64,000 nucleotides of DNA from a virus. Its lineage: Duplodnaviria > Caudoviricetes. Numbering within the stretch: the first letter of the stretch is position 1; each line of letters starts with the position of its first letter. The notes beneath the pieces were generated by a model. The model was not told the origin of the DNA, searched no databases, and saw only the letters and a list, made by a program, of their open reading frames with translations. A program made the translations under genes and the position numbers. Shown in pieces: positions 22,116-34,562 of this stretch. The DNA is taken from IMG/VR virus record IMGVR_UViG_3300021962_000022, one strand, 5' to 3'.

Positions 22116-23414
22116 TTAATTTGATAAAGGTGCTTTAATTGATGGGTGTGATTGGTATCCTTCCACCGAAAAATCCTCTGTATTTAAATGTCCGAACAAC
22201 GATGTTGACTCAGATAATGATTTGTAAAATTCATCAGTTTTACCGTGAACTAATTTAGGTAACTGAAAAGGTTGTCTTGTACGATTTGGTATTTTATAAA
22301 TTTCATAGTATTCGGACATACCTCCACCAAATGGTGCCAAGTCATTTAACGCGTCTCTGTACCCTTTTGGTCCCATCGCATTCTTTAACATTTCTTCTCT
22401 TTCTTCAAAAGTATATCTACGACCTATTTGTTCTTTTGCCTGTTCAATATGATTTGAATACAGGTGTACATCACCCAAGTTACCAATCAATTCATCAGGA
22501 ACCATGTTTACTTCTTTAGCAATGATTTCAAGTAATAAACCGTATGATGCTATGTTGAATGGTAAACCAAGAAATGTATCTACTGAACGTTGATTCCACA
22601 TTAAAGAGATTGTTCTAGTTGGAATATTTTCCCAATCAATTTTAGTATCACTTCCTTTTAGTGCTTGATGTAAGTTATTCTTTAGGTATTGCATATCTCT
22701 AATTTCATTTCTTTCATCTTCACTCAACTCTCTTGTATAAACTTGAAATCCATAATGACAGGGTGGTAAAGTCATTTTATCCAATTCACCTACATTCCAA
22801 GCATTAACCATTAATCGTCTTGAGTCTGGATTTGTTTTAAGGTCGTTGATTAGATTCCAGATTTGGTCTTTACCAACTAAATAATCTTTATGTTGTTCAA
22901 CTCCATTTACCACTTTCAAAATATCGTGCTGTCCTTCGTGGAAACCCATCCAGTTTCTCCATTGTTTACCATAAATTGGTCCTAACTCACCCCATTTCTT
23001 AGCAAACTCATCATCGGTTTTGATTTTGTCAATGAATTCTTCTATTGTAAATGGTTCAGTTAATGTTCTATTTTTCTTAGAATTCTCTAATAATTTGGTT
23101 TTACCAACATATTCACCTTTATTATATCTTTTAATATAGGCTTGATAAGCATCACCATCCCAAATATGACAACCATTATCAACAAGATATTTGATGTTGG
23201 TGTCACCTTTTAAAAACCATAGTAATTCAGTCACCATTGTCTTCCAGGCCATTTTCTTGGTTGTAAGTAACGGAAATCCCTCACTCATTTTATGACGTAT
23301 TTGTCTACCAAATACCGAAATGGTACCTGTACCTGTTCTATCTTTTTTCTCTATACCATTATCCAAGATATCTTGAAGTAACTTTTGGTATTGTATATCA
23401 ATGTTATTCATCAT
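22116..23414 (-). CDS. thyA: Thymidylate synthase with large insertions
   Basis: DRTGTGT, ELLWF, LGPIYGKQWR, LPPCH, NQRSVDTFLGLPFNIASY, GDVHLY. Confidence 0.96.
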   Translation of the reverse strand: MMNNIDIQYQKLLQDILDNGIEKKDRTGTGTISVFGRQIRHKMSEGFPLLTTKKMAWKTMVTELLWFLKGDTNIKYLVDNGCHIWDGDAYQAYIKRYNKGEYVGKTKLLENSKKNRTLTEPFTIEEFIDKIKTDDEFAKKWGELGPIYGKQWRNWMGFHEGQHDILKVVNGVEQHKDYLVGKDQIWNLINDLKTNPDSRRLMVNAWNVGELDKMTLPPCHYGFQVYTRELSEDERNEIRDMQYLKNNLHQALKGSDTKIDWENIPTRTISLMWNQRSVDTFLGLPFNIASYGLLLEIIAKEVNMVPDELIGNLGDVHLYSNHIEQAKEQIGRRYTFEEREEMLKNAMGPKGYRDALNDLAPFGGGMSEYYEIYKIPNRTRQPFQLPKLVHGKTDEFYKSLSESTSLFGHLNTEDFSVEGYQSHPSIKAPLSN

Positions 23415-24428: not shown

Positions 24429-24838
24429 TATTCAGTAGGTTGTGTATCAATTAATTTTTGTATTCGGCTTCTACCTTTTTCACCGATTGGAACGGGGTTA
24501 CCTTCTTCATCTATACGAACAAATCTGATGTTTGTTTTTAAAATAACAACCTGATTACCTGTGTATACATTATGTGCTCTCGCTTCCATGTACAAAGTAA
24601 CCGAGGTGTTACCTAATTTACTCGGTAATCCGTAAATTTTTATTAATTGACCTTCCTTAGCTGGTTTTTCAAAATAACATTTATCTATTGAAACTGTAAC
24701 CATTCTTGGTGAATCACACAACTGCATCGAATATCCCGCAGCCGCAGCATCAATCCAAGCGAGTAACTTCCCACCGAATAAATTTCCGTGAAATCCTAAG
24801 TCAGATTTTTTTATTGGGTGGGAATTTAGAAACTCCAT
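24428..24838 (-). CDS. Acyl-CoA thioesterase (HotDog fold)
   Basis: HGNLFGGKLLAWIDAAA, VTVSID, GNTSV, FVRIDEEGNPVP. Confidence 0.9.
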   Translation of the reverse strand: MEFLNSHPIKKSDLGFHGNLFGGKLLAWIDAAAAGYSMQLCDSPRMVTVSIDKCYFEKPAKEGQLIKIYGLPSKLGNTSVTLYMEARAHNVYTGNQVVILKTNIRFVRIDEEGNPVPIGEKGRSRIQKLIDTQPTE

Positions 24839-25008
24839 TATTCAAATATTATTTCTTCTCTTGTAATGTATTCTTTTAATGCGTTTTCAGCTTCAATTTT
24901 CGTGTTATAGTAACCAATAACTTGGTCAAATTCTGTTGGGTCAGAAACACCGAATTGACCATTCAATGTTTCAAATACAAATGTGTCTAAAATTTGTTGG
25001 TTTATCAT
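24838..25008 (-). CDS. Small hypothetical protein (56 aa)
   Basis: Read manually: MINQQILDTFVFETLNGQFG...; TAATG overlap. Confidence 0.6.
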   Translation of the reverse strand: MINQQILDTFVFETLNGQFGVSDPTEFDQVIGYYNTKIEAENALKEYITREEIIFE

Positions 25009-25009
25009 T

Positions 25010-25162
25010 TTAATCGTTTTTAACTTGGTTTTTATTTTCGGTTTCAGTTTTTTTCGACTCTTCTAATTTTTTAAAAAGATTAATCAACGTTGATTCTTCT
25101 CTTTTTAGTCTTTGATTACGAGCTTGAACTTTTTTTCTATGTTCCTTATCTTTTTTTCCCAT
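25010..25162 (-). CDS. Small basic protein (50 aa)
   Basis: Read manually: MGKKDKEHRKKVQARNQRLK... Confidence 0.6.
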   Translation of the reverse strand: MGKKDKEHRKKVQARNQRLKREESTLINLFKKLEESKKTETENKNQVKND

Positions 25163-25174
25163 AAATTTTAATTT

Positions 25175-26305
25175 TTATTCTTCGTCTTTTCTATAATTTT
25201 CCAATAGTTCGTCATTTGAAAGTGCTCCGTATTTTGATGCAATACTTTCAACATCAACTTCGACGTTCATCATGTGAATTGTATTATTTAATTCTTCTGC
25301 CAATCTTAAAGTATCTGAAATAACTTTTACAATTCTATATGGGTCAGCGTGAGATGCTGGTCTTCTATCCTCAAGATATCCCACCCAAGTATCTGCAACC
25401 GATTTAGGGACCCTAATCGACGCTCCTCTGTCTGAGAATCCCCAACTAAATGTGTCAATTGACTGTGTTTCAAATTTACCTGTTAATCGTAAATGATTAT
25501 CGGAACCATAATTTTCAATATGTTCTTTGGTTCTTGATTCAAACGCCCTAAAAATCGAATTGAAGTATTCTTCTCCACCCGTAGTTCTCATTTTTTCATT
25601 TGAGAAGTTGGTATGCATTCCTGAACCGTTCCATTCACCGTGTTGAATTGGTTTAGGGTGTAACTCAATTTGATAACCGTACTTTTCAGCAATTAGAAAC
25701 AAGAAGTATCGTGACATCCACAAATCATCTGATGCTTTAAGTTTACCCTTTTCAAAAATTTGGTATTCCCATTGTCCCATGGCAACTTCCGCATTCGTTC
25801 CCTCGATGTTTATGTTATATTTCAAACACATATTCAAATGGTCTGTACTTACTTCTCTACCATACATTTGACCACCGACACCACAATAATACTTACCTTG
25901 TGGGTCAATCATTGTTCCTGAATCAAACCCCAATATATTTTTGTTATGTCCTGAACGTATAAAGTATTCTTGTTCGAGTCCTACCCAAAAATTTGTATCC
26001 TCTTTACCAACTTTCGCTCGAGTATTTGACTCGTGAATTTGATTATTACCATCTAAAACTTCGCACAACACATATATTGTATCACTGTAATTCTCTGTTG
26101 CATAAAATCTAACAGGTTTCAAATAACAATCTGAGAAATTACCTTCAGCTTGTTTTGTTGAACTGCCATCAAAACCCCAATTAGGAAAGTCGGAAATATT
26201 TAATTCACTTACTGATTTGTTTAAATCAATTATTTTAATTTTACTTCTAAGGTTTGGTTCTGGTGTATACCCATCTAACCAAACATACTCTACTATTCTT
26301 TTCAT
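25175..26305 (-). CDS. glnII: Glutamine synthetase type II
   Basis: YVWLDG, WGFDGSST, EQEY, NAEVAMGQWEYQI, WNGSGMHTNFS, RGASIR, GYLEDRRP. Confidence 0.93.
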   Translation of the reverse strand: MKRIVEYVWLDGYTPEPNLRSKIKIIDLNKSVSELNISDFPNWGFDGSSTKQAEGNFSDCYLKPVRFYATENYSDTIYVLCEVLDGNNQIHESNTRAKVGKEDTNFWVGLEQEYFIRSGHNKNILGFDSGTMIDPQGKYYCGVGGQMYGREVSTDHLNMCLKYNINIEGTNAEVAMGQWEYQIFEKGKLKASDDLWMSRYFLFLIAEKYGYQIELHPKPIQHGEWNGSGMHTNFSNEKMRTTGGEEYFNSIFRAFESRTKEHIENYGSDNHLRLTGKFETQSIDTFSWGFSDRGASIRVPKSVADTWVGYLEDRRPASHADPYRIVKVISDTLRLAEELNNTIHMMNVEVDVESIASKYGALSNDELLENYRKDEE

Positions 26306-26514
26306 TTTTTATAATATATATTTTTTTGTGCTTGGACACCAATCATGAAAATTAAAAACCTTAAACTAAAACCAATAGATGGTGAGGTAAGACCGGTTTC
26401 AAAAAATTCATATTTGTTATAAGAAAAAATTGGTGTCGGTAATAAAAACCAATGGTGTTTTTTCTTTATTATAAAGAAATCAATAAAATATTTTTTTTCT
26501 TTTTGATTACCCAT
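26302..26514 (-). CDS. Hypothetical protein
   Basis: 70-aa ORF coupled to glnII. Confidence 0.6.
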   Translation of the reverse strand: MGNQKEKKYFIDFFIIKKKHHWFLLPTPIFSYNKYEFFETGLTSPSIGFSLRFLIFMIGVQAQKNIYYKK

Positions 26515-26680
26515 TTTTCTTCTTTTTTAAATAGTCCAAAACGATGTTGAACGAACCCAACGAAATTATACCAAAACCAAAATACTTTTCAAGGTCGGGG
26601 TTAGTTGTGTTCATACCGTATCTCTCAATTAGGATTCCCGTTAGAATCATCATCACGTAGATTATTGTCCGTATATTCAT
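26507..26680 (-). CDS. Small two-helix membrane protein (57 aa)
   Basis: Read manually: MNIRTIIYVMMILTGILIERYG... Confidence 0.55.
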   Translation of the reverse strand: MNIRTIIYVMMILTGILIERYGMNTTNPDLEKYFGFGIISLGSFNIVLDYLKKKKNG

Positions 26681-26870
26681 ATGTTTTTAAATGTTGTATC
26701 GATTTATACAAAGAATGTGTTTCCATCAAATTGAAAACACCTGAATTTAATGCGTGTTCTAACCCAATTTCAATAATTTGAATTGACATTTTTAGATTTA
26801 AATTATCTAAAACTAATTCCAATTCTTCCGTACTATCAAAATTCAATTGATTATTAAACAGTGCTTTCAT
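26625..26870 (-). CDS. Hypothetical protein
   Basis: 81-aa ORF behind a sigma-70-like promoter. Confidence 0.65.
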   Translation of the reverse strand: MKALFNNQLNFDSTEELELVLDNLNLKMSIQIIEIGLEHALNSGVFNLMETHSLYKSIQHLKTYEYTDNNLRDDDSNGNPN

Positions 26871-26878
26871 GGTAATAA

Positions 26879-26916
26879 AATATAATAAAGAAATACGATA
26901 AAGTCAAATATTTATA
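26879..26916. promoter_or_regulatory. Back-to-back promoters
   Basis: Minus: TTGACT-N17-TATATT (26907-26879); plus: TATTTATA (26909-26916). Confidence 0.65.
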
Positions 26917-26921
26917 GAAAT

Positions 26922-27290
26922 ATGTCAGTGATTATAAACAATAATAGATTTCCCGCCGAGTATTTATCGGGCCCTGAAGAAATAAGTAAAGGTATGATGG
27001 GAAGAGATAAATTAGACGGTTGTATGGTCTTTAATATGGGTAATATTGGTCACCATTCTTTTTGGATGAAAAACTGTCTAATTCCCTTGGATATTGTTTT
27101 TGTTTTAAAGAATAAAATAAGTAGGATACACCGAAATTGTGAACCTGCGGGGCAGAATGAGTTAAACCCAAAAAGATACACGGGTATTGCTGACCATGTA
27201 ATAGAATTTCCGGTAGGTGTGACCTCGAACTTTAAAGAAGGTGACCGAGTTAATATGTACTTAGGTACACCACTTAACCCTATGGTTTAA
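26922..27290 (+). CDS. DUF192-family protein
   Basis: KGMMGR, GCMVF, FWMKNCLIPLDIVF, HVIEF. Confidence 0.88.
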   Translation: MSVIINNNRFPAEYLSGPEEISKGMMGRDKLDGCMVFNMGNIGHHSFWMKNCLIPLDIVFVLKNKISRIHRNCEPAGQNELNPKRYTGIADHVIEFPVGVTSNFKEGDRVNMYLGTPLNPMV

Positions 27291-28141
27291 TTTTCTTCTT
27301 CAAACAATAATAATTGTTTCTTTTGATTATCGTAATCGATTAATCTTTGTTGAGATATCTTAGCATAGTTCTCAGATAATTCAAACCCAATATAGTTTCT
27401 ATCTAATTTCTTGGCGGCTAGTGCAGTTGTACCACTACCCGAAAAACAATCAACAACTAAATCATTTTTGTAAGATAGGATTTTTATCGCTTTCATTGGG
27501 ATGTCCATTGAGAAGGTTGCTTTGGTTAATGACTTGGTATCATTAAAATATTTCCATTGACCAAAAACTAATTCCATGAATTCACTCTTGTCTTTATCTG
27601 AATAAACCCTTTTGTTTTTGATAACACCCTCTTCATTTTCCATTTCAACCTCATTATATGACCATTGAGAAATACCCTTTTCTTTTTTCTTATAATCCTT
27701 CTTATATGCAAGAATTACACATTCTTTTGGATTATATATGTAAGGTGATGAAGGTGACATCCATGAACCCCATGCGGTTGTTTTTGAACGGTGTGGTGAG
27801 TCTTCTTCCAAATCAACAACACCAAAAAATCCAAAACCAATTTCTTTCATCATCTGCCAGTATTCGGAAACCAAAAAGATTCTACCACCTCTTTCTCTCA
27901 CATTGATTTCATAAGGAATGTTCAGAGCGATTCTTCCATCATCTTTTAACGTTCTATAAACTTCAGATAACCATTTCTTACACCAAGCAAGATAATCTTC
28001 CATTGGTTCGTCATCTTTGTGAACATCGTAACTAATACCCACATTGTACGGTGGACTTGTTACATACAGGTCAACCACGTTGTTATTCAACTCTTTAAAA
28101 AGTTCTAAACAATCTCCTTGATAAATTTTATTCGTTTCCAT
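27287..28141 (-). CDS. Beta-class N4-C/N6-A DNA methyltransferase (orphan)
   Basis: GDCLE, VTSPPYN precedes VVDCFSGSGTT; start at ATG 28141. Confidence 0.92.
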   Translation of the reverse strand: METNKIYQGDCLELFKELNNNVVDLYVTSPPYNVGISYDVHKDDEPMEDYLAWCKKWLSEVYRTLKDDGRIALNIPYEINVRERGGRIFLVSEYWQMMKEIGFGFFGVVDLEEDSPHRSKTTAWGSWMSPSSPYIYNPKECVILAYKKDYKKKEKGISQWSYNEVEMENEEGVIKNKRVYSDKDKSEFMELVFGQWKYFNDTKSLTKATFSMDIPMKAIKILSYKNDLVVDCFSGSGTTALAAKKLDRNYIGFELSENYAKISQQRLIDYDNQKKQLLLFEEEN

Positions 28142-28213
28142 TGACAAATTCTTTTTTGTTTACTATCATTACAAATGATAACGAATAAAAAACAATAAAC
28201 CAAAATATTTATA
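28141..28213. promoter_or_regulatory. Divergent promoter region with inverted repeat
   Basis: Plus TTGACA-N17-TATCAT (28141-28169); IR TATCATT-ACA-AATGATA; TATTTATA at 28206-28213. Confidence 0.6.
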
Positions 28214-28228
28214 AAAAAACTTAAAATC

Positions 28229-28417
28229 ATGGGATGCGGATGTAAAAAAAGAAATCAACCTGTTAGTAATCCAACAGTAAACATTCAATTAACTGAGGGT
28301 AGTTCTTCAACTTCACCTCAAGAAATTAGTATTATGGAGCAACAAATCGACCAAATCATTAAAAAGGTTGAGGAGATTAACAATCAAACAAACGAAGAAA
28401 ACACTGAAGGACAATAA
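28229..28417 (+). CDS. Small protein with Cys-rich N-terminus
   Basis: MGCGCKKR..., acidic helix. Confidence 0.7.
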   Translation: MGCGCKKRNQPVSNPTVNIQLTEGSSSTSPQEISIMEQQIDQIIKKVEEINNQTNEENTEGQ

Positions 28418-28420
28418 ATA

Positions 28421-28457
28421 ATATCGGACAGTCTTATAAATTGTCCGATATTTTTTG
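28421..28457 (+). terminator. 10-bp inverted repeat (terminator or operator)
   Basis: ATATCGGACA-N11-TGTCCGATAT followed by a T run. Confidence 0.6.
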
Positions 28458-28493
28458 TCTTTTATAATATATATAAATTTATATACTTATATT

Positions 28494-28694
28494 ATGCCTA
28501 AACAACAAACAAAACTGACAAGTGTTAATATTATAGACGATGTTTATAAGAGATTCAAGATTAAAACAATTGATGGGTCGATTAACTTACAAAAATTAGT
28601 AAACAGGTCTCTCGACCTTTATAACTCAAGAGAAGATTTTAGAAAACAAATAGATAATCACAATGGTTTGGCACCAAATGGTTCTAAATTTTAA
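28494..28694 (+). CDS. Ribbon-helix-helix-like DNA-binding protein
   Basis: KLTSVNI strand, helix DDVYKRFK, helix LQKLVNRSLDLY; ATG 28494. Confidence 0.6.
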   Translation: MPKQQTKLTSVNIIDDVYKRFKIKTIDGSINLQKLVNRSLDLYNSREDFRKQIDNHNGLAPNGSKF

Positions 28695-28723
28695 TTTGTG
28701 ATTACTTTTTCTTATATTTTGGT

Positions 28724-29074
28724 ATGCACTTATCTAAATTCTTACTTTTAAGAGGTAGTGATTATTTTTTAACGAACACTGTCGAAGTTAGACATGGTAT
28801 TCGTAGAATTAATGCTCAATGGTCTCCTGAATTAGCTCAGGATATTGAAGAGTATCACGGTATCAATGTGGAAGAAGAATTAGTAAGATTATTATCAGAA
28901 GAACTTGCAAGGGAAATCGATTCACAAATTATTAATACATTAAGACAGGGAGTAACAATTGCTCAGGACTTAGTTCCGATACAACCAATGAACGAACCTG
29001 TTGGACATCTTTTTTGTTTCGATTATTCCTACAACAATTACACATTCAAAAATTTCAAATTATTAAGAGGATGA
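28724..29074 (+). CDS. Miniature, order-reversed T4 gp23-type major-capsid-protein derivative
   Basis: RRINAQWSPELAQDIEEYHGINVEEELVRLLSEELAREIDSQII followed by IAQDLVPIQPMNEPVGHLF. Confidence 0.8.
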   Translation: MHLSKFLLLRGSDYFLTNTVEVRHGIRRINAQWSPELAQDIEEYHGINVEEELVRLLSEELAREIDSQIINTLRQGVTIAQDLVPIQPMNEPVGHLFCFDYSYNNYTFKNFKLLRG

Positions 29075-30531
29075 TAACAATAGGTTACAGCACAAGAGAA
29101 TCAAATCCCAAGTTTCAAGAATACTTAAAGAAAACTTGTGGTCACCCAAAAGTTCAGGTTATTGAAAAGGTGAACAATGGTGAAAAAAGTTTGTCACAAA
29201 CATACAATGAAATAATAAATGAATCAGAACATGACATTGTAGTTTTTTGTCACGATGACATTTATTTTGAAACCAGTTCTTGGGGTCGAAAATTAATGAA
29301 ACACTTTGAAGAAAGTGAGTATGGTATTTTAGGTGTTGCTGGTACAACCAACATTCATGAAAGTGGTAGATGGTGGACAGACAATACCAAAATGGTTGGT
29401 ATTGTTAACCACGAGAACGAAGGTAAAAAATGGGAATCTAGATATGCGAACGGTATACCAAATTCAATTCATCAAGTTTGTTTGGTCGATGGTTTGTTTA
29501 TTGCAATCTATAAGAATAGAATTAAACACACTTTCAATGAATCGGTACCCGGATTCCACTTCTACGATATGACTTTCTGTACTGAAAATCATTTAAGTGG
29601 TGTTCAGATTGGTGTGATATATAATATCAGATTAACCCATAAGTCTATTGGGATGACTAATGAATCTTGGGAGAAGAATAGGGAAGAATATATTGAGAGA
29701 TTCAAGAATGAATTACCTATATCCATAACACCGAAGATTAATTACGATGTGATTAAACCAAAACAAGTTAAGGAGAAATATAATCTGATTGTTCAAACAT
29801 CTAACAACAGTGAGAAACTCGTAAACTTTTTTGAGAGAATTAAAGAATTACCAGTTTACGATAATCTATTAATCTCATTGATTTCAACCGATAGTAACAT
29901 TGAGGATGTAAGAAAGTATGAATCTGAAAATGTTTTAATTTATGAAGGGTTTTTTGAAACATTAAATAAAAACCTATCTGTATTAAAGTGGGATGACTCG
30001 TTCATGAATTCTAAATCGGATTTACTTTTCTTTTCAACTGACGCGGTAACCATTCTCAATGACGTTTTTTCAAGTATGTATGGTATCTTCAAAAATGAAA
30101 GAAGTAGTTTTGGATGTGCATTCCCATCAGTTTTGGAATCTGATGGAACCATCTTCTCAAATGGTTTGGATATCATCCAAAATAAAGAAGAACAGTTTAA
30201 TTTAATCTTTAAAAATAAGTCATCATATTTCAACATACTTCACGGACATTTTCCAATTAATTTTGGCAGTATCAGTGATTTTTTCGCAACAACATCATCA
30301 AATTTAAAGATGATAGATTGGTTTGATATTAATTTAGAAACATCAATCTATAATTTAGATTTTGCTTTGAAATCATTCCTTAAAAAACGTAAAGTTTATG
30401 TTGATACGAATAGTGTCGTTATGATTGACATGGCGTCTCAATTTGAAAAGATAGATGGTGAATTAAAACAAGTTTTAGGTCAATACATGAACGCGCCTGA
30501 AATAAGAAAAAATGTGAAACAAATAAGATGA
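29071..30531 (+). CDS. Two-domain GT-A glycosyltransferase
   Basis: SLSQTYN, FCHDDIYF, LVDGLFIAI, FHFYD; ATG overlaps TGA of the upstream gene. Confidence 0.85.
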   Translation: MITIGYSTRESNPKFQEYLKKTCGHPKVQVIEKVNNGEKSLSQTYNEIINESEHDIVVFCHDDIYFETSSWGRKLMKHFEESEYGILGVAGTTNIHESGRWWTDNTKMVGIVNHENEGKKWESRYANGIPNSIHQVCLVDGLFIAIYKNRIKHTFNESVPGFHFYDMTFCTENHLSGVQIGVIYNIRLTHKSIGMTNESWEKNREEYIERFKNELPISITPKINYDVIKPKQVKEKYNLIVQTSNNSEKLVNFFERIKELPVYDNLLISLISTDSNIEDVRKYESENVLIYEGFFETLNKNLSVLKWDDSFMNSKSDLLFFSTDAVTILNDVFSSMYGIFKNERSSFGCAFPSVLESDGTIFSNGLDIIQNKEEQFNLIFKNKSSYFNILHGHFPINFGSISDFFATTSSNLKMIDWFDINLETSIYNLDFALKSFLKKRKVYVDTNSVVMIDMASQFEKIDGELKQVLGQYMNAPEIRKNVKQIR

Positions 30532-31307
30532 TAAAAATAATATCAGGATTTACAGAAAAAGGTGGCTCGACCACTTTTTTTATAAACTTAACTAATTTTC
30601 TAAACGAAAACGGTATTGACTGCACATTTTATGGTAATCAGAATTACCATATGGATAAATGTAAATCAGGTAATATCGATAAGGATTTAAAGTACGAACC
30701 CGATGATGTAATCATTACTCATTTCCTACAACTACAAGAAAGACCACCGGTAAAAAAAGTGATTTTATCTTGTCATGAGAAGTGGTGGTTTCCCGTTGGG
30801 AAAATAAAACAGTATTGGGATGTCTGTGTTTTTTTACATGATGAACACAGAAAATATCATTCAGATTATCGAGGTGATTATGTAATCATACCGAATATCA
30901 AAGAGAGTTTATTGAACTCCGATAAAGAATCTGTAAAAAACATTGCGGGTATAATTGGAACAATCGAAGATAGAAAACAAACACATGTGTCAATACAAAG
31001 AGCACTGAAAGACAGGTGTGAAAAAATTTACTTATTCGGTCATATCGGTGACCAAGGTTACTTTGACAGGTTTGTAAAGCCATTAATGAATCCAAGAGTG
31101 ATTCACTATGGTCACACAAATAATAAACAAGAGATGTACGATATGATTGGTAAAGTTTATCATTCATCTAAAGGTGAGGTTGCATGTTTGGTTAAAGATG
31201 AATGTTACCTAACCGGTACTGAATTTTATGGAAATGAAGAAACTATGAATGAGGTTTCTAAATTAAATAACGATGAGATATTAACACTTTGGAAAAATAT
31301 ATTTTAA
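30528..31307 (+). CDS. GT-B (GT4-like) glycosyltransferase
   Basis: GGST, GIIGTIEDRKQTH, VYHSSKGE. Confidence 0.7.
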   Translation: MIKIISGFTEKGGSTTFFINLTNFLNENGIDCTFYGNQNYHMDKCKSGNIDKDLKYEPDDVIITHFLQLQERPPVKKVILSCHEKWWFPVGKIKQYWDVCVFLHDEHRKYHSDYRGDYVIIPNIKESLLNSDKESVKNIAGIIGTIEDRKQTHVSIQRALKDRCEKIYLFGHIGDQGYFDRFVKPLMNPRVIHYGHTNNKQEMYDMIGKVYHSSKGEVACLVKDECYLTGTEFYGNEETMNEVSKLNNDEILTLWKNIF

Positions 31308-32030
31308 ATGAAAATACACGCACATATATTAGCTTGGAATGAGGAAAGAATACTTCCATTTACATTAGATTATTACAGCACCATTTGTGAGAAAATATTC
31401 ATCTACGATAATATGTCAACAGACTCGTCAGATGAGATTTATAAAAAGTACCCAAAAGTAGAAGTCACTAAATGGGACAGTGGTAATGAAATAAATGAGA
31501 TTAATTACGTCAATATAAAATCCGAAGAATATAAAAAACGAAGCAGAGGTCAAGGTGTTGACTGGGTTATTGTTTGTGACTGTGATGAATTTATTTATCA
31601 TGAAAATCTATTGGATAAATTAAACGAGTACAAACAATTAGGTATAACCGTACCGAGAATTGATGGTCACGATATGGTGAGCACGGAATTTCCAAAATAT
31701 GACGGGGAATTGATTACAACTAAAATAAAAACCGGTTCTAAAACATATGAACCTATGTGTAAAAACATAATATTCCATCCTGATTTGGATATCAAATACG
31801 GAATTGGTGGTCACAGTTTTAATTCCGTAGATGGAAAATTCTCAGATGAGAGAGAAATAAAACTTTTACATTATAAATTTTTAGGTAAGGAGTATGTAAA
31901 AAACATTTATATCTCGAGAGCTAAGAGATTGTCTTCTTTCAACAAGCAACATAAATTTGGTGAACATTATTTCAATCTACCTTTCAATTATATGGATACC
32001 ATGTTAAAAGAAAACTACCAAGTAATATGA
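31308..32030 (+). CDS. GT2-like glycosyltransferase
   Basis: WNEERILPFTLDYY, YDNMSTD, WVIVCDCDEF, LLHYK. Confidence 0.85.
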   Translation: MKIHAHILAWNEERILPFTLDYYSTICEKIFIYDNMSTDSSDEIYKKYPKVEVTKWDSGNEINEINYVNIKSEEYKKRSRGQGVDWVIVCDCDEFIYHENLLDKLNEYKQLGITVPRIDGHDMVSTEFPKYDGELITTKIKTGSKTYEPMCKNIIFHPDLDIKYGIGGHSFNSVDGKFSDEREIKLLHYKFLGKEYVKNIYISRAKRLSSFNKQHKFGEHYFNLPFNYMDTMLKENYQVI

Positions 32031-32848
32031 AAAAAATTTTAATTTCTGATTTTACAATAAAGGAAGTGCCACACGGTGGTTCTGAATGGGTAAACCAAGT
32101 TTTAATTGATAAGTTTAATCTTGATTTTCAATACTCAAATCAAGTCACTTCATTTGATTATAATAATCTATACATCATATCAAATATTTCATTGATGAAT
32201 CCAAATTTGGTAAGTCAAATACCTAATTTGAATTATATTATAATTGAAAACGATTACAAGATTTGTCCGAGTCGTCATCCATGGAGATATCCTGATAATA
32301 TTATTCCGAATGAAGACAGAATTAATTATTCAATTTATAAGAATGCAAAGGCGGTATTCGTTCAAACAACAGACCACATGAATGTGTATTTGAAAAATGA
32401 TGTGGTCGCCAATTTTATAAATTTAAATAGTTCAATATGGTCTGATAATGACTTAGAACTTTTAAGAGAATTGAATAAAAATAATTCAGTAAAGAATGAT
32501 AAATACTCAGTTTACTACACCAATAATTGGATTAAAAATACACAGGGTAGTTTAAAATATTGTTCTGAAAATAAATTACCAGTTTACATTTTAAAAGAAT
32601 CAAAAGATAGAGTTGAGTTTTTAACTAACCTTTCAAAATGTAAGGGTATTGTGTTTTTTCCAATTGCAAGAGAAACGTTTTGTAGGTTAGTTGTGGAATC
32701 TAAATGTTTAGGTTTAGATGTAATCACAACACAAAATTATGGTGCTAGTTTAGAAGATTGGTTCCATCAATTTTCAGGTGAAGAACTTATAAATTTCTTA
32801 GAATCTAACACCTCTAAGAACTTAGATATTATTTCAAATTATTTATGA
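32027..32848 (+). CDS. GT-B (GT4-like) glycosyltransferase
   Basis: PHGGSE, FFPIARETFCRLVVESKCLG. Confidence 0.75.
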   Translation: MKKILISDFTIKEVPHGGSEWVNQVLIDKFNLDFQYSNQVTSFDYNNLYIISNISLMNPNLVSQIPNLNYIIIENDYKICPSRHPWRYPDNIIPNEDRINYSIYKNAKAVFVQTTDHMNVYLKNDVVANFINLNSSIWSDNDLELLRELNKNNSVKNDKYSVYYTNNWIKNTQGSLKYCSENKLPVYILKESKDRVEFLTNLSKCKGIVFFPIARETFCRLVVESKCLGLDVITTQNYGASLEDWFHQFSGEELINFLESNTSKNLDIISNYL

Positions 32849-33837
32849 TACTTTTCTGTTACGGGACTAGACCCGAATATATAAAAATTAAAAAATTAAT
32901 TGAATCATGTGAAGGTGTTATACCGTATAAAGTATTGTACGTAACCCAACACAAAGACATAGTATTGGGTGATTTCGATTACAAATTAGTCATTGATGAC
33001 CTTTGTGATAATAGGTTAAACAGTATAATGGCGTCAGTCTTTTTAAACTTTAAAGAAGAATTTTTAAAAGATGTGACCCACATACTTGTTCAAGGGGATA
33101 CGGCAACCGCATTGTCACTTTCTTTAATTGGTTTACATTACAAAAAAGAAGTCATTCATTTAGAAGCTGGTCTTAGGACATATGATTACAATCATCCTTA
33201 TCCCGAAGAAATGTATCGACAACTAATAAGTCGAGTGTCAAATTATAACTTGTGTCCAACAGAAAGTAACAAACTTAATTTGGAAAATGAGAAAGTACAA
33301 GGACAAAATTTTGTAGTCGGTAACACCGTTTTAGATAATTTAGATAGAGACAATATTTCTTACGAGGATAAAGTTTTAATTACTTTACACAGACGAGAGA
33401 ATCATGAACAAATGTCCGAATGGTTTAATGAAATCAATCAACTCGCAATAGAGAATCCACAATTAGTTTTTATATTACCGATACACCCAAATCCAAATGT
33501 CCTAAAACACAAACACATACTATCACACGTTAATGTTGTTGACCCGATGAACCATGTTGATTTCATAAAGGAATTCAAATCTTCTAAAATTTTGATATCA
33601 GACAGTGGTGGGGTTCAAGAGGAAGCTGCGTTTTTAAATAAGAAAGTAATTGTCTGTCGAGAAAAAACTGAAAGACCTGAGTCAGTTGGTAAAACATCTT
33701 TTATTTGTAGAAAACCCATTGACTTAAAGGGTATTTTTTACGATATTATTAACGATTTTGACACACAGTATGAATGTCCTTATGGTGACGGTAATTCCTG
33801 TGATAAAATCGTAGAAATATTTAAAAAAATCATATGA
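32845..33837 (+). CDS. wecB: UDP-N-acetylglucosamine 2-epimerase
   Basis: GTRPEYIK, VQGDT, HLEAGLRT, PYPEE, HRREN, SDSGGVQEE, R..TERPE, YGDG. Confidence 0.95.
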   Translation: MILFCYGTRPEYIKIKKLIESCEGVIPYKVLYVTQHKDIVLGDFDYKLVIDDLCDNRLNSIMASVFLNFKEEFLKDVTHILVQGDTATALSLSLIGLHYKKEVIHLEAGLRTYDYNHPYPEEMYRQLISRVSNYNLCPTESNKLNLENEKVQGQNFVVGNTVLDNLDRDNISYEDKVLITLHRRENHEQMSEWFNEINQLAIENPQLVFILPIHPNPNVLKHKHILSHVNVVDPMNHVDFIKEFKSSKILISDSGGVQEEAAFLNKKVIVCREKTERPESVGKTSFICRKPIDLKGIFYDIINDFDTQYECPYGDGNSCDKIVEIFKKII

Positions 33838-34562
33838 GTATAACAGTAATATTAAATGGTTATAAAAGACCTCACGTTCTTGCAAAACAATTAGAAAGTA
33901 TTAGAAATCAAAGTGTTCAACCTGAGTCAATTTTATTTTGGCAAAACTCAGGTGCCGAATTTGATTCTAATTTAACTAAGGACTTAATTCACGCGTCATC
34001 TAATCACAACTTTGGTGTTTGGGCTAGATTTGCATACGCTTTAAACGCAACAACAGAATACATTTGTGTATTTGATGATGATACCATTCCCGGTCCATTA
34101 TGGTTAGAAAATTGTTTGAATACCATGAAAATTCAAGAGGGATTATTGGGAACAATTGGTGTTAAATTTCACACAAAAAACACATATTGGCCAGCAACAA
34201 GAATTGGTTGGGATGGTCCAAATGAACAGATAGAACAAGTGGACATCGTTGGTCATTCTTGGTTTTTTAAAAGAGAATGGTTATCTATTTTTTGGAGGGA
34301 GTTACCCGAAATCAATCAAAGTAAATTGGTTGGTGAGGACATGCACTTTTCTTATACCCTACAGAAATACGCCAACATAGGTACATTCGTCCCTCCACAT
34401 CCAAAAAATAATATGGATATGTGGGGAAGCATTCCTGAACATGCTTGGAAACACGGAACCGATTCTAATGCAATTTCAGTTCACAATTCAAATATGAATT
34501 TAATGAGTGAAGTATACCGTGGTTATATCGATAAAGGTTTTAAAACCATTTTAAATCGTTAA
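33834..34562 (+). CDS. GT2-like glycosyltransferase
   Basis: NFGVWARF, CVFDDDTIPG, GEDMHFS. Confidence 0.82.
   Translation: MSITVILNGYKRPHVLAKQLESIRNQSVQPESILFWQNSGAEFDSNLTKDLIHASSNHNFGVWARFAYALNATTEYICVFDDDTIPGPLWLENCLNTMKIQEGLLGTIGVKFHTKNTYWPATRIGWDGPNEQIEQVDIVGHSWFFKREWLSIFWRELPEINQSKLVGEDMHFSYTLQKYANIGTFVPPHPKNNMDMWGSIPEHAWKHGTDSNAISVHNSNMNLMSEVYRGYIDKGFKTILNR

What the first reader, a model, noticed from the sequence alone, without database searches (positions are those of the whole stretch)
28724..29074. Circularly permuted 'mini major-capsid protein'
Seen: a 116-aa ORF built from two short blocks. Knowledge (recalled, needs confirmation): block 1 (RRINAQWSPELAQDIEEYHGINVEEELVRLLSEELAREIDSQII) aligns with T4 gp23 SRQLKAAYSIELAQDLRAVHGMDADAELSGILATEIMLEINREVV; block 2 (IAQDLVPIQPMNEPVGHLFCFDY) aligns with IAFDICGVQPMNSPTGQVFALRA. 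In gp23 the QPMN block lies roughly 200 residues BEFORE the ELAQD block; here the order is reversed and the blocks are joined directly. Inference: these two P-domain elements neighbour each other in the HK97 fold, so a clean permutation with its own start and promoter-like motif suggests a selected stand-alone domain, not debris. It could be a capsid mimic: a decoy for capsid-sensing defences, an assembly modulator, or a glycosylation adaptor.
Basis: partly seen in the sequence, partly recalled or inferred. Interest (0 to 1): 0.9.

Follow-up and report, generated by a model that had tools for sequence, protein, structure and literature searches.

The report
Permuted mini capsid-protein gene, accessory cassette
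A 116-residue phage gene is built from two conserved pieces of the T4-type major capsid protein joined in swapped order; it belongs to a large, uncharacterised family seen so far only in metagenomes, evolves fast, is missing from close relatives, and its function is still unknown.

Summary
ORF 28724-29074 (+) matches Pfam Gp23 (E 3e-20) in two stretches in swapped order. Residues about 20-76 match T4 gp23 257-313, which I take to be the E-loop base and spine helix. Residues 78-106 match gp23 106-134, the QPMN strand.

It is not debris. A profile search found dozens of 50%-identity clusters of 80-230-aa proteins with the same order. 143 of the short proteins I fetched show it. On a tree they separate from full-length gp23, though support for that exact split is weak.

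Three natural-order minis group with them, which fits a true permutation. An FKLLRG-like motif is repeated at both ends of the protein and co-varies between them.

The gene is accessory. Thirteen contigs about 80% identical on both flanks carry 25 nt in its place. One 92%-complete relative has only a normal 587-aa gp23. Its dN/dS is 0.59, against 0.01-0.08 for its neighbours.

All nine distinct loci of its subfamily that I examined lie in a variable glycan operon. Two other subfamilies lie beside Mom-like genes. AlphaFold gave only a helical hairpin (pLDDT about 56).

My best guess (about 0.35) is a capsid-protein mimic that engages a partner of unassembled gp23. The main rival (about 0.25) is a capsid-docking adaptor for the glycan operon. 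I found no description of the family in papers or in about 50,000 deposited phage genomes.

The parts
28724..29074 (+). Mini-gp23 ORF, 116 aa (P0001), including the stop codon
   Evidence: ORF listing and translation. Pfam Gp23 E=3.3e-20. Homologues at 97%, 93%, 86% and 54% identity cover its full length.
28736..28756 (+). N-terminal motif KFLLLRG (residues 5-11), repeated at the C-terminus
   Evidence: The family-wide F-K-[FL]-[FL]-R-G motif occurs at both termini. Within-protein N/C identity is 0.67 against 0.53 for shuffled partners, 0 of 5000 shuffles reaching it. Relatedness of the sequences was not controlled for.
28781..28951 (+). Block B (residues 20-76), homologous to T4 gp23 257-313. 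The E-loop and spine-helix assignment comes from my knowledge of the HK97 fold.
   Evidence: Full-length gp23 HMM, i-E 1.2e-20. PDB phmmer, query 26-88 on gp23 263-325. AlphaFold predicts helices at 35-45 and 49-81.
28955..29041 (+). Block A (residues 78-106), homologous to T4 gp23 106-134. This is the QPMN strand, which I take to be the Gol region of T4 gp23.
   Evidence: Full-length gp23 HMM, i-E 2e-8; in relatives down to 1e-17. PDB phmmer, query 64-103 on gp23 90-131. The Gol region is described as the most conserved part of gp23, in its first quarter (PMC3014915). The exact Gol coordinates are from memory.
29045..29071 (+). C-terminal motif FKNFKLLRG (residues 108-116)
   Evidence: The DNA here is nearly identical between the window and L006, although the proteins are only 54% identical.
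28709..28718 (+). TTCTTATATT motif 5 nt before the ATG. It may be a promoter or an initiation element.
   Evidence: 43 matches at up to 1 mismatch against 23.8 expected; 0 of 100 shuffles reached 43. Several copies lie just upstream of start codons, including the 66-aa ORF at 28494. The motif is conserved in L001, L006 and the mini-less L119.
28719..29070 (+). Exact extent of the presence/absence cassette
   Evidence: L119 1704-5975 aligns to window 24447-28718 and L119 6001-11484 to window 29071-34556, at about 80% identity. L119 has 25 nt in place of this stretch.
29071..30531 (+). Downstream glycosyltransferase (Glyco_tranf_2_5). Its ATG overlaps the mini's TGA (ATGA).
   Evidence: Pfam PF13712, E=9.6e-28. 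The overlap is seen in the sequence. The same tight stop/start overlap occurs with different downstream genes in L006, L008, L010, L014 and L015.
28494..28694 (+). Conserved 66-aa ORF upstream (context; no family found)
   Evidence: A similarly sized small ORF lies in the same position in all subfamily I loci where that side is held. No Pfam or NCBIfam hit.

Best explanation
Shown. The ORF encodes a stand-alone derivative of the T4-type major capsid protein gp23. It keeps only two gp23 segments: the part matching T4 gp23 257-313 and the conserved QPMN segment. They are joined in permuted order and capped at both ends by a co-varying FKLLRG-like motif.

It belongs to an old, diverse, fast-evolving family found in uncultured T4-like jumbo phages. 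It is an accessory gene that sits as a precise cassette at the head of a glycan operon.

Inferred. It lacks the A-domain and the C-terminal P-domain strands, and it is not predicted to fold alone. So it cannot build a capsid. It most likely works by mimicry. It would present the most conserved gp23 surfaces to a partner that normally engages newly made, unassembled gp23. That surface includes what I take to be the T4 Gol peptide, which binds EF-Tu and is sensed by the Lit protease.

The partner I think most likely is a host capsid-sensing or gp23-binding factor. On this reading the protein is a decoy or modulator in phage-host conflict, or in conflict between phages, and not a structural part.
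For: Identity and permutation.

Family size and spread: 1584 profile hits, with dozens of 50%-identity clusters of short proteins matching in one stretch. 298 clusters at 90% identity reach E<=1e-5. 143 permuted minis are among the short proteins I fetched.

Separate group: all 131 permuted minis and 3 natural-order minis lie on one side of the tree, and all 56 full-length gp23 on the other.

Old paralogue: it is 50% (block B) and 39% (block A) identical to the near-cognate gp23. It keeps QPMNEPVG where that gp23 has QAMNLPIG.

No gp23 A-domain or C-terminal piece is found anywhere in the window.

No autonomous fold: pLDDT 56.5 and 55.7, with only helices at 35-45 and 49-81.

Accessory: there is a clean indel against 13 contigs about 80% identical on both flanks. 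A 92%-complete relative has one gp23 and no mini.

Fast evolution: dN/dS is 0.59, against 0.01-0.08 for 11 neighbouring genes in the same genome pair.

Hypervariable setting beside DNA-modification genes: an N6/N4 methylase in subfamily I, and Mom-like genes in subfamilies II and III.

Against: No partner has been identified and no binding has been tested.

All nine distinct subfamily I loci that I examined lie inside a glycan operon with tight stop/start overlaps. A pure decoy model does not explain that.

A Gol-like segment would be expected to activate a Lit-type sensor, not to block one.

The dN/dS of 0.59 rests on only 27 substitutions and could reflect relaxed constraint.

Expression timing is unknown. 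The sigma-70-like sites upstream are no more frequent than chance.

The window phage's own gp23 was not available.
Confidence: 0.35

Rival explanations
1. Capsid-docking adaptor or minor decoration protein of the glycan operon. The gp23-derived strands and E-loop dock onto the gp23 lattice by strand complementation. The terminal FKLLRG-like strands tie in glycosyltransferases or similarly tagged small proteins rich in N-x-S/T motifs, so that glycans end up on the capsid.
For: All nine distinct subfamily I loci that I examined (window, L001, L006, L008, L010, L011, L014, L015, L018) lie in the same syntenic island. Glycan genes are annotated there wherever enough flank is held; the L011 contig is too short to show any, and L018 was checked only for the mini ORF. 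The glycosyltransferase content turns over while the mini stays.

Tight stop/start overlaps occur with whichever gene follows.

In L008, L010 and L015 an adjacent 80-97-aa gene carries the same N-terminal tag and many N-x-S/T motifs.

Against: The same operon, about 80% identical, exists without the gene in 13 contigs, and a 92%-complete relative lacks it entirely.

0 of 52 loci with a GT2_5 homologue carry a mini.

Subfamilies II and III lie in settings without annotated glycan genes.

No Shine-Dalgarno sequence or strong expression signal of the kind expected for a structural protein is present.

Tight overlaps are common in phage operons whatever the function.
Confidence: 0.25
2. Assembly modulator or dominant-negative capsid fragment. 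It would cap or perturb gp23 polymerisation, either to tune the phage's own jumbo-head assembly or to poison the capsids of co-infecting T4-like competitors.
For: It keeps gp23 segments that, from my knowledge of HK97-fold capsids, make contacts between subunits.

Its block A resembles other phages' gp23 (up to 57% identity) more than the near-cognate gp23 (39%).

It is accessory and fast-evolving.

Some subfamily II loci also encode a separate piece matching the gp23 C-terminus, E 1e-13 to 4e-15.
Against: There is no direct evidence. The near-cognate gp23 comes from a relative that lacks the mini, so self-resistance cannot be judged. This model does not explain the position in the glycan operon.
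Confidence: 0.15
3. A decaying or neutral remnant of a capsid-gene rearrangement, with no function of its own.
For: It is dispensable in close relatives. dN/dS is high in the closest pair. No fold is predicted.
Against: The frame is intact and the architecture is the same in 143 fetched proteins spanning below 40% identity. The terminal motifs are conserved and co-vary. dN/dS is 0.14-0.42 in distant pairs although dS is saturated. The minis group apart from full-length gp23.
Confidence: 0.05

Closest known systems
T4 gp23 major capsid protein (Pfam PF07068, HK97 fold; PDB 5VF3, 6UZC, 8T9R)
   Same: Two segments are clearly homologous: mini 20-76 to gp23 257-313 and mini 78-106 to gp23 106-134. 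The Pfam score is above the gathering threshold.
   Different: It covers only about 95 of 376 profile positions, and in swapped order. There is no A-domain, no insertion domain, no propeptide and no C-terminal P-domain strands. It carries family-specific terminal motifs. It cannot be a shell-forming subunit.
T4 gp24 vertex protein (a gp23 paralogue)
   Same: It is a second gp23-derived gene kept in the same genome. There is weak similarity over the same helix region (E about 0.2).
   Different: gp24 is a full-length, collinear HK97-fold protein with a known structural role. The mini is a 116-aa permuted fragment.
Gol peptide of T4 gp23, the EF-Tu-binding trigger of the e14 Lit protease
   Same: Block A matches the most conserved stretch in the first quarter of gp23, which is how the Gol region is described (PMC3014915).
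   Different: Gol is a region of the full capsid protein, not a separate gene. Binding to EF-Tu or Lit was not tested for the mini. The exact Gol coordinates are recalled from memory.
T4 internal proteins (IPI, IPII, IPIII) with a shared capsid-targeting sequence
   Same: These are small, fast-evolving accessory proteins in hyperplastic loci. In L008, L010 and L015 the mini and an adjacent small gene share one N-terminal tag.
   Different: There is no sequence similarity and no LxE-type protease site. The tag is also repeated at the C-terminus. No second tagged gene is present in this window. The link to T4 rests on my own knowledge.
Phage-encoded virion glycosylation operons (mycobacteriophages, chloroviruses)
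   Same: Both involve a phage operon of glycosyltransferases, methyltransferases and sugar epimerases with a link to a capsid protein.
   Different: To my knowledge those systems act on the full capsid protein and include no capsid-derived mini gene. Here the operon also exists without the mini.

Membership tests
Pfam PF07068 Gp23 / T4-type major capsid protein | Sequence match above the curated gathering score | tested here: met
   73.3 bits against a cut-off of 24.4, E=3.3e-20
Pfam PF07068 Gp23 / T4-type major capsid protein | Collinear coverage of the capsid fold, from N-arm through E-loop and P-domain to A-domain and C-terminal strands | tested here: not met
   Only profile 143-195 and about 19-61 are covered, in swapped order. 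There is no match to the A-domain or C-terminal part anywhere in the window.
Pfam PF07068 Gp23 / T4-type major capsid protein | Forms the capsid shell, or is present in virions | not testable with these tools
   No virion proteomics is available. The homodimer prediction gave no verdict and is not counted.
Circularly permuted protein | The same homologous segments occur in cyclically shifted order, and each matches significantly on its own | tested here: met
   Block B then block A in every mini inspected, and in 143 of the fetched short proteins. i-E values are 1e-14 to 1e-28 for B and 1e-6 to 1e-17 for A.
Circularly permuted protein | Relatives with the unpermuted order exist in the same group | tested here: met
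   P0022, P0033 and P0197 have A, then a linker, then B, and group with the permuted minis apart from full-length gp23. Support for the exact split is only 0.46; neighbouring splits have 0.88-0.89.
Circularly permuted protein | The parental three-dimensional fold is kept | tested here: inconclusive
   AlphaFold2 with 47 and with 72 sequences gave pLDDT 56.5 and 55.7. Helices were predicted but the strands did not form.
Gol-type EF-Tu-binding peptide (Lit trigger) | Homology to the conserved gp23 segment in the first quarter of the protein | tested here: met
   Mini 78-106 matches T4 gp23 106-134. The Gol region is described in PMC3014915.
Gol-type EF-Tu-binding peptide (Lit trigger) | Binds EF-Tu and activates, or blocks, a Lit-type protease | not testable with these tools
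   This needs biochemistry or an infection assay.
T4-type internal proteins with a capsid-targeting sequence | One N-terminal tag shared by several small genes of the same phage | tested here: inconclusive
   Met in L008, L010 and L015. No second tagged ORF is present in this window.
T4-type internal proteins with a capsid-targeting sequence | The tag derives from, or resembles, a capsid or scaffold-binding propeptide and ends in a prohead-protease site | tested here: not met
   A profile of the gp23 propeptide motif scores the tags no better than shuffled sequences. There is no LxE-type site.

The most novel reading that the evidence does not exclude
The minis, together with the separately encoded gp23 C-terminal piece and the similarly tagged small proteins beside them, form a new class of capsid-protein mimics in jumbo T4-like phages. 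On this reading they are modular fragments of the gp23 P-domain and E-loop. They carry a shared, co-evolving terminal tag. They are deployed as swappable cassettes to neutralise or redirect factors that recognise the most conserved capsid surfaces, such as capsid-sensing abortive-infection systems, EF-Tu or competing phages.
Probability: 0.25. Interest if true: 0.85.

Novelty: new variant of a known kind. Interest (0 to 1): 0.66.

Why it matters
Capsid proteins are among the main triggers of bacterial abortive-infection immunity. Their most conserved surfaces are hard for a phage to change. A widespread, fast-evolving, dispensable gene made only of those surfaces would be a natural counter-measure or modulator, and it offers a compact probe for whatever binds unassembled gp23.

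Whatever the function, the family is a clear natural example of permutation and fragmentation of the HK97-fold capsid protein into stand-alone modules. It marks a hypervariable island in an uncultured group of freshwater and estuarine jumbo phages. Natural variants with and without the gene already exist, so a direct comparison is possible.

Tried and rejected
- Third gp23 block at the N-terminus. I tried matching LLRGSD to T4 PLRGSD. 168 of 1000 shuffles scored as well, so this is rejected.

- One collinear gp23 fragment. BLAST aligns the mini in one piece to cyanophage S-SSM4 gp23 197-299. The full-length gp23 HMM splits every mini into B then A. The subfamily II C-terminal tail shows no similarity to gp23. 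The collinear reading is an extension artefact.

- Tag derived from the gp23 propeptide motif KWxxTGLLxGL. Scores were no better than for shuffled sequences.

- Homodimer prediction with complex prediction: no verdict, not used as evidence.

- Two AlphaFold2 monomer runs had low confidence. I therefore ran no fold search.

- RNA evidence.

- The window's own genome is not held. Loci from metagenome contigs could not be extended, so the phage's own gp23 was not obtained. A near-cognate gp23 from G007 was used instead.

- tblastn of four minis against about 50,000 deposited phage genomes. P0001 gave no match at all. For the other three every listed match lay on an annotated capsid or vertex gene, on an unannotated record, or, in Ralstonia phage RsoM2USA, inside a 411-aa hypothetical protein. 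None was a short permuted ORF.

- T4 late-promoter consensus TATAAATA is not enriched in the window. Sigma-70-like sites are at chance level.

- No direct repeats flank the indel, so there is no sign of transposition.

- A first IMG/VR scan with the single protein found nothing.

Full report
**Observation**

It matches Pfam Gp23 (PF07068) at E=3.3e-20, 73.3 bits against a cut-off of 24.4, in two stretches. It also matches PHROG 138, major head protein.

Against solved T4 gp23 chains, residues 26-88 align to gp23 263-325 and residues 64-103 to gp23 90-131. I fetched T4 gp23 from NC_000866. In shuffle tests neither block's score was reached in 1000 shuffles.

I built an HMM from 56 full-length gp23 sequences. 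It places residues 20-76 on T4 257-313 (i-E 1.2e-20) and residues 78-106 on T4 106-134 (i-E 2e-8). So the swapped order is real.

From my knowledge of the HK97 fold, block B is the base of the E-loop, a short helix and the spine helix. Block A is the end of the N-arm helix plus the first P-domain strand.

**Not a collinear fragment**

BLAST aligns the mini in one piece to cyanophage S-SSM4 gp23 197-299. That suggested an ordinary internal fragment. However, the full-length gp23 HMM splits every mini into B followed by A. Block A scores independently, down to 1e-17. The tails beyond block A have no detectable gp23 similarity. I therefore treat the one-piece alignment as an extension artefact.

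**A large family**

- The word-indexed search found homologues at 97%, 93%, 86% and 54% identity that keep both blocks and both termini.
- A profile search of 1.84 billion cluster representatives gave 1584 hits. Dozens of 50%-identity clusters of 80-230-aa proteins match the whole mini in a single stretch. Full-length gp23 (400-670 aa) match in two stretches.
- A second indexed search returned 298 clusters at 90% identity with E<=1e-5.
- Of the short proteins I fetched, 143 show the order B then A.
- On a FastTree of the concatenated blocks, all 131 permuted minis and three natural-order minis (P0022, P0033, P0197) lie on one side. All 56 full-length gp23 lie on the other. Support is 0.46 for that split and 0.88-0.89 for neighbouring splits.

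Both topologies in one group fit a genuine permutation of an ancestral shortened gp23.

The ESM Atlas holds clusters of 64 to 483 such short proteins, labelled only as Gp23-domain proteins. Pfam gave only the Gp23 match, and NCBIfam gave nothing. My paper searches found no description of the family.

tblastn of four minis against about 50,000 deposited phage genomes found no short permuted ORF. P0001 gave no match. The others matched capsid or vertex genes, unannotated records, or one 411-aa hypothetical protein.

**Subfamilies and terminal motifs**

- Subfamily I includes the window. Members are about 105-128 aa, with an F-K-[FL]-[FL]-R-G motif near the N-terminus and again at the C-terminus.
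- Subfamily II members are about 134-147 aa. Subfamily III members are about 185-220 aa. Both have other termini that are again similar to each other, plus extra C-terminal sequence.

In subfamily I the two motifs co-vary. Examples are FKFGR with FKFGR, FKYFHD with FKYFHD, and FKLL with FKLL. Within-protein identity is 0.67 against 0.53 for shuffled partners, with 0 of 5000 shuffles reaching it. Shared ancestry of the sequences is not controlled for in that test.

The codons differ at synonymous sites, so the constraint acts on the protein and not on a DNA repeat. Full-length gp23 sequences lack the motif.

**Genomic setting**

All nine distinct subfamily I loci that I examined lie in one syntenic island: window, L001 (L002-L004 encode the same protein), L006, L008, L010, L011, L014, L015 and L018. 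Where both flanks are held, the island has DUF192, a divergently transcribed N6/N4 DNA methylase and two small ORFs. A plus-strand operon of changing content follows, with glycosyltransferases, methyltransferases, epimerases and GLF.

The mini is the first gene of that operon or sits a few genes in. Its stop overlaps the next gene's start, whichever gene follows. L006, L011 and L018 are less complete. L006 starts at the mini, L011 is only 1.8 kb, and L018 was checked only for the mini ORF.

The carriers are jumbo phages. Contigs reach 213 and 310 kb, and CheckV estimates for the fragments imply about 300 kb. Near-identical DNA occurs in freshwater, estuarine and marine metagenomes from several studies.

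Subfamilies II and III sit elsewhere, next to Mom-like genes. In two subfamily II loci the gene just upstream of the mini is itself a gp23 piece. It matches the last 65 or so residues of gp23 at E 1e-13 to 4e-15. No such piece is found in the window or in the subfamily I loci scanned.

**The gene is accessory**

A scan for homologues of the downstream GT2_5 returned 52 IMG/VR loci, and none has a mini within 6 kb. Thirteen of them (L108-L120) encode a GT2_5 84% identical to the window's, a sign of close kinship.

L119 aligns at about 80% nucleotide identity on both sides. L119 1704-5975 matches window 24447-28718, and L119 6001-11484 matches window 29071-34556. It carries 25 nt where the window has 28719-29070. 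There are no flanking direct repeats.

The 288-kb record that holds L119 is 92% complete. It has one 587-aa gp23 and no mini. Against that near-cognate gp23 the mini is 50% identical in block B and 39% in block A. It keeps QPMNEPVG where the capsid gene has QAMNLPIG. It is therefore an old paralogue, not a recent fragment.

**Selection**

Between the window and L001, dN/dS of the mini is 0.59 (8 synonymous and 19 non-synonymous changes). Eleven neighbouring genes give 0.01-0.08. Distant pairs give 0.14-0.42, with dS saturated.

So the gene is constrained over long spans but evolves much faster than its neighbours. That fits either conflict or partly relaxed constraint.

**Structure**

AlphaFold2 with 47 and then 72 aligned sequences gave mean pLDDT 56.5 and 55.7. 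It predicted helices at 35-45 and 49-76/81, and no confident sheet. I read this as a protein whose strands need a partner, but that is an inference.

**Signals**

A TTCTTATATT-like motif is enriched in the window: 43 matches against 23.8 expected, and 0 of 100 shuffles reached 43. It lies 5 nt before the mini's ATG and directly before the ATG of the 66-aa ORF. It persists upstream of the GT gene in the relatives that lack the mini. A terminator-like hairpin follows the 62-aa ORF.

**Mechanism**

The identity is well supported: a stand-alone, permuted, accessory gp23 derivative. The function is not.

I favour mimicry of unassembled gp23 toward a gp23-binding partner, at about 0.35. The reasons:
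- The protein consists of the most conserved capsid segments. One of them I take to be the Gol region, which binds EF-Tu and triggers Lit in T4 (PMC3014915).
- It cannot form a shell.
- It is dispensable and fast-evolving.
- It lies in hypervariable islands beside DNA-modification genes.

The main rival, at about 0.25, is a capsid-docking adaptor for the glycan operon. The strict synteny supports it. So do the adjacent, similarly tagged small genes rich in N-x-S/T motifs in L008, L010 and L015. The same operon existing without the gene weakens it.

Assembly interference (0.15) and a neutral remnant (0.05) follow.

**Verdict**

The reading as a selected stand-alone permuted domain is supported, and the specific functions are open.

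As far as my searches show, this is a new variant of a known protein kind, not described in the literature and not found in deposited phage genomes. Natural variants with and without the gene make it directly testable.

Noticed in passing
L016:5760-6014 and L012:5790-6014: In subfamily II loci the 74-84-aa gene just upstream of the mini matches the last 65 or so residues of gp23 (custom HMM E 1e-13 to 4e-15; Pfam Gp23 304-356 at E 0.0024). Two adjacent small genes may therefore together carry most P-domain segments of gp23.
   Followed up: partly
L008:4966-5241, L010:5762-6004, L015:7760-8053: Small genes (80-97 aa) next to the mini start with the same tag as that phage's mini, for example MGLLDTFKFG beside MGLLDDFKFGR. 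They end in a tag-like F-x-[IL]-[FI]-x-R and are rich in N-x-S/T motifs. They show no gp23 similarity.
   Followed up: partly
window 28709-28718, 28484-28493 and about 40 other sites: A TTCTTATATT-like motif is enriched: 43 matches against 23.8 expected, and 0 of 100 shuffles reached 43. It often lies a few to 40 nt upstream of start codons. It may be a promoter or initiation element of this phage group.
   Followed up: partly
window 28420-28452 (+): A 13-bp terminator-like hairpin with a T-run follows the 62-aa ORF. It overlaps a sigma-70-like site (TTGTCC, 16 nt, TATAAT) ahead of the 66-aa ORF.
   Followed up: no
L008:3369-4616, L010:4512-5762, L015:6513-7763: The 415-416-aa gene upstream of these minis has weak Glycos_transf_1 matches. 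It begins MSKPFLLLRGP or MSKQFLLFRGP, strikingly like the window mini's N-terminus MHLSKFLLLRG. This may be chance or a recombination joint between gene starts.
   Followed up: no
window 22116-23414 (-) and 25175-26305 (-): A thymidylate-synthase-like protein with a long insertion (432 aa) and a glutamine-synthetase-like gene lie beside the DNA methylase. This may be a set for DNA base hypermodification. That reading is from my own knowledge and was not tested.
   Followed up: no
P0022, P0033, P0197 (proteins from metagenomes): Natural-order minis of 158-190 aa group with the permuted minis. They have block A, then a short linker, then block B. They begin with a gp23-like N-terminus (MGxKNVGLxxNIGL, compare MGALLESGMVGNIGL in the G007 gp23).
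   Followed up: partly
L016:2678-3736, L012:3016-4089, L017:4018-6813: Neighbours of subfamily II and III minis have signal peptides and share a C-terminal segment (such as DYKGMVILVYSDGTT). It resembles a type IX secretion sorting domain, which would hint at Bacteroidota hosts. This comes from memory and was not tested.
   Followed up: no
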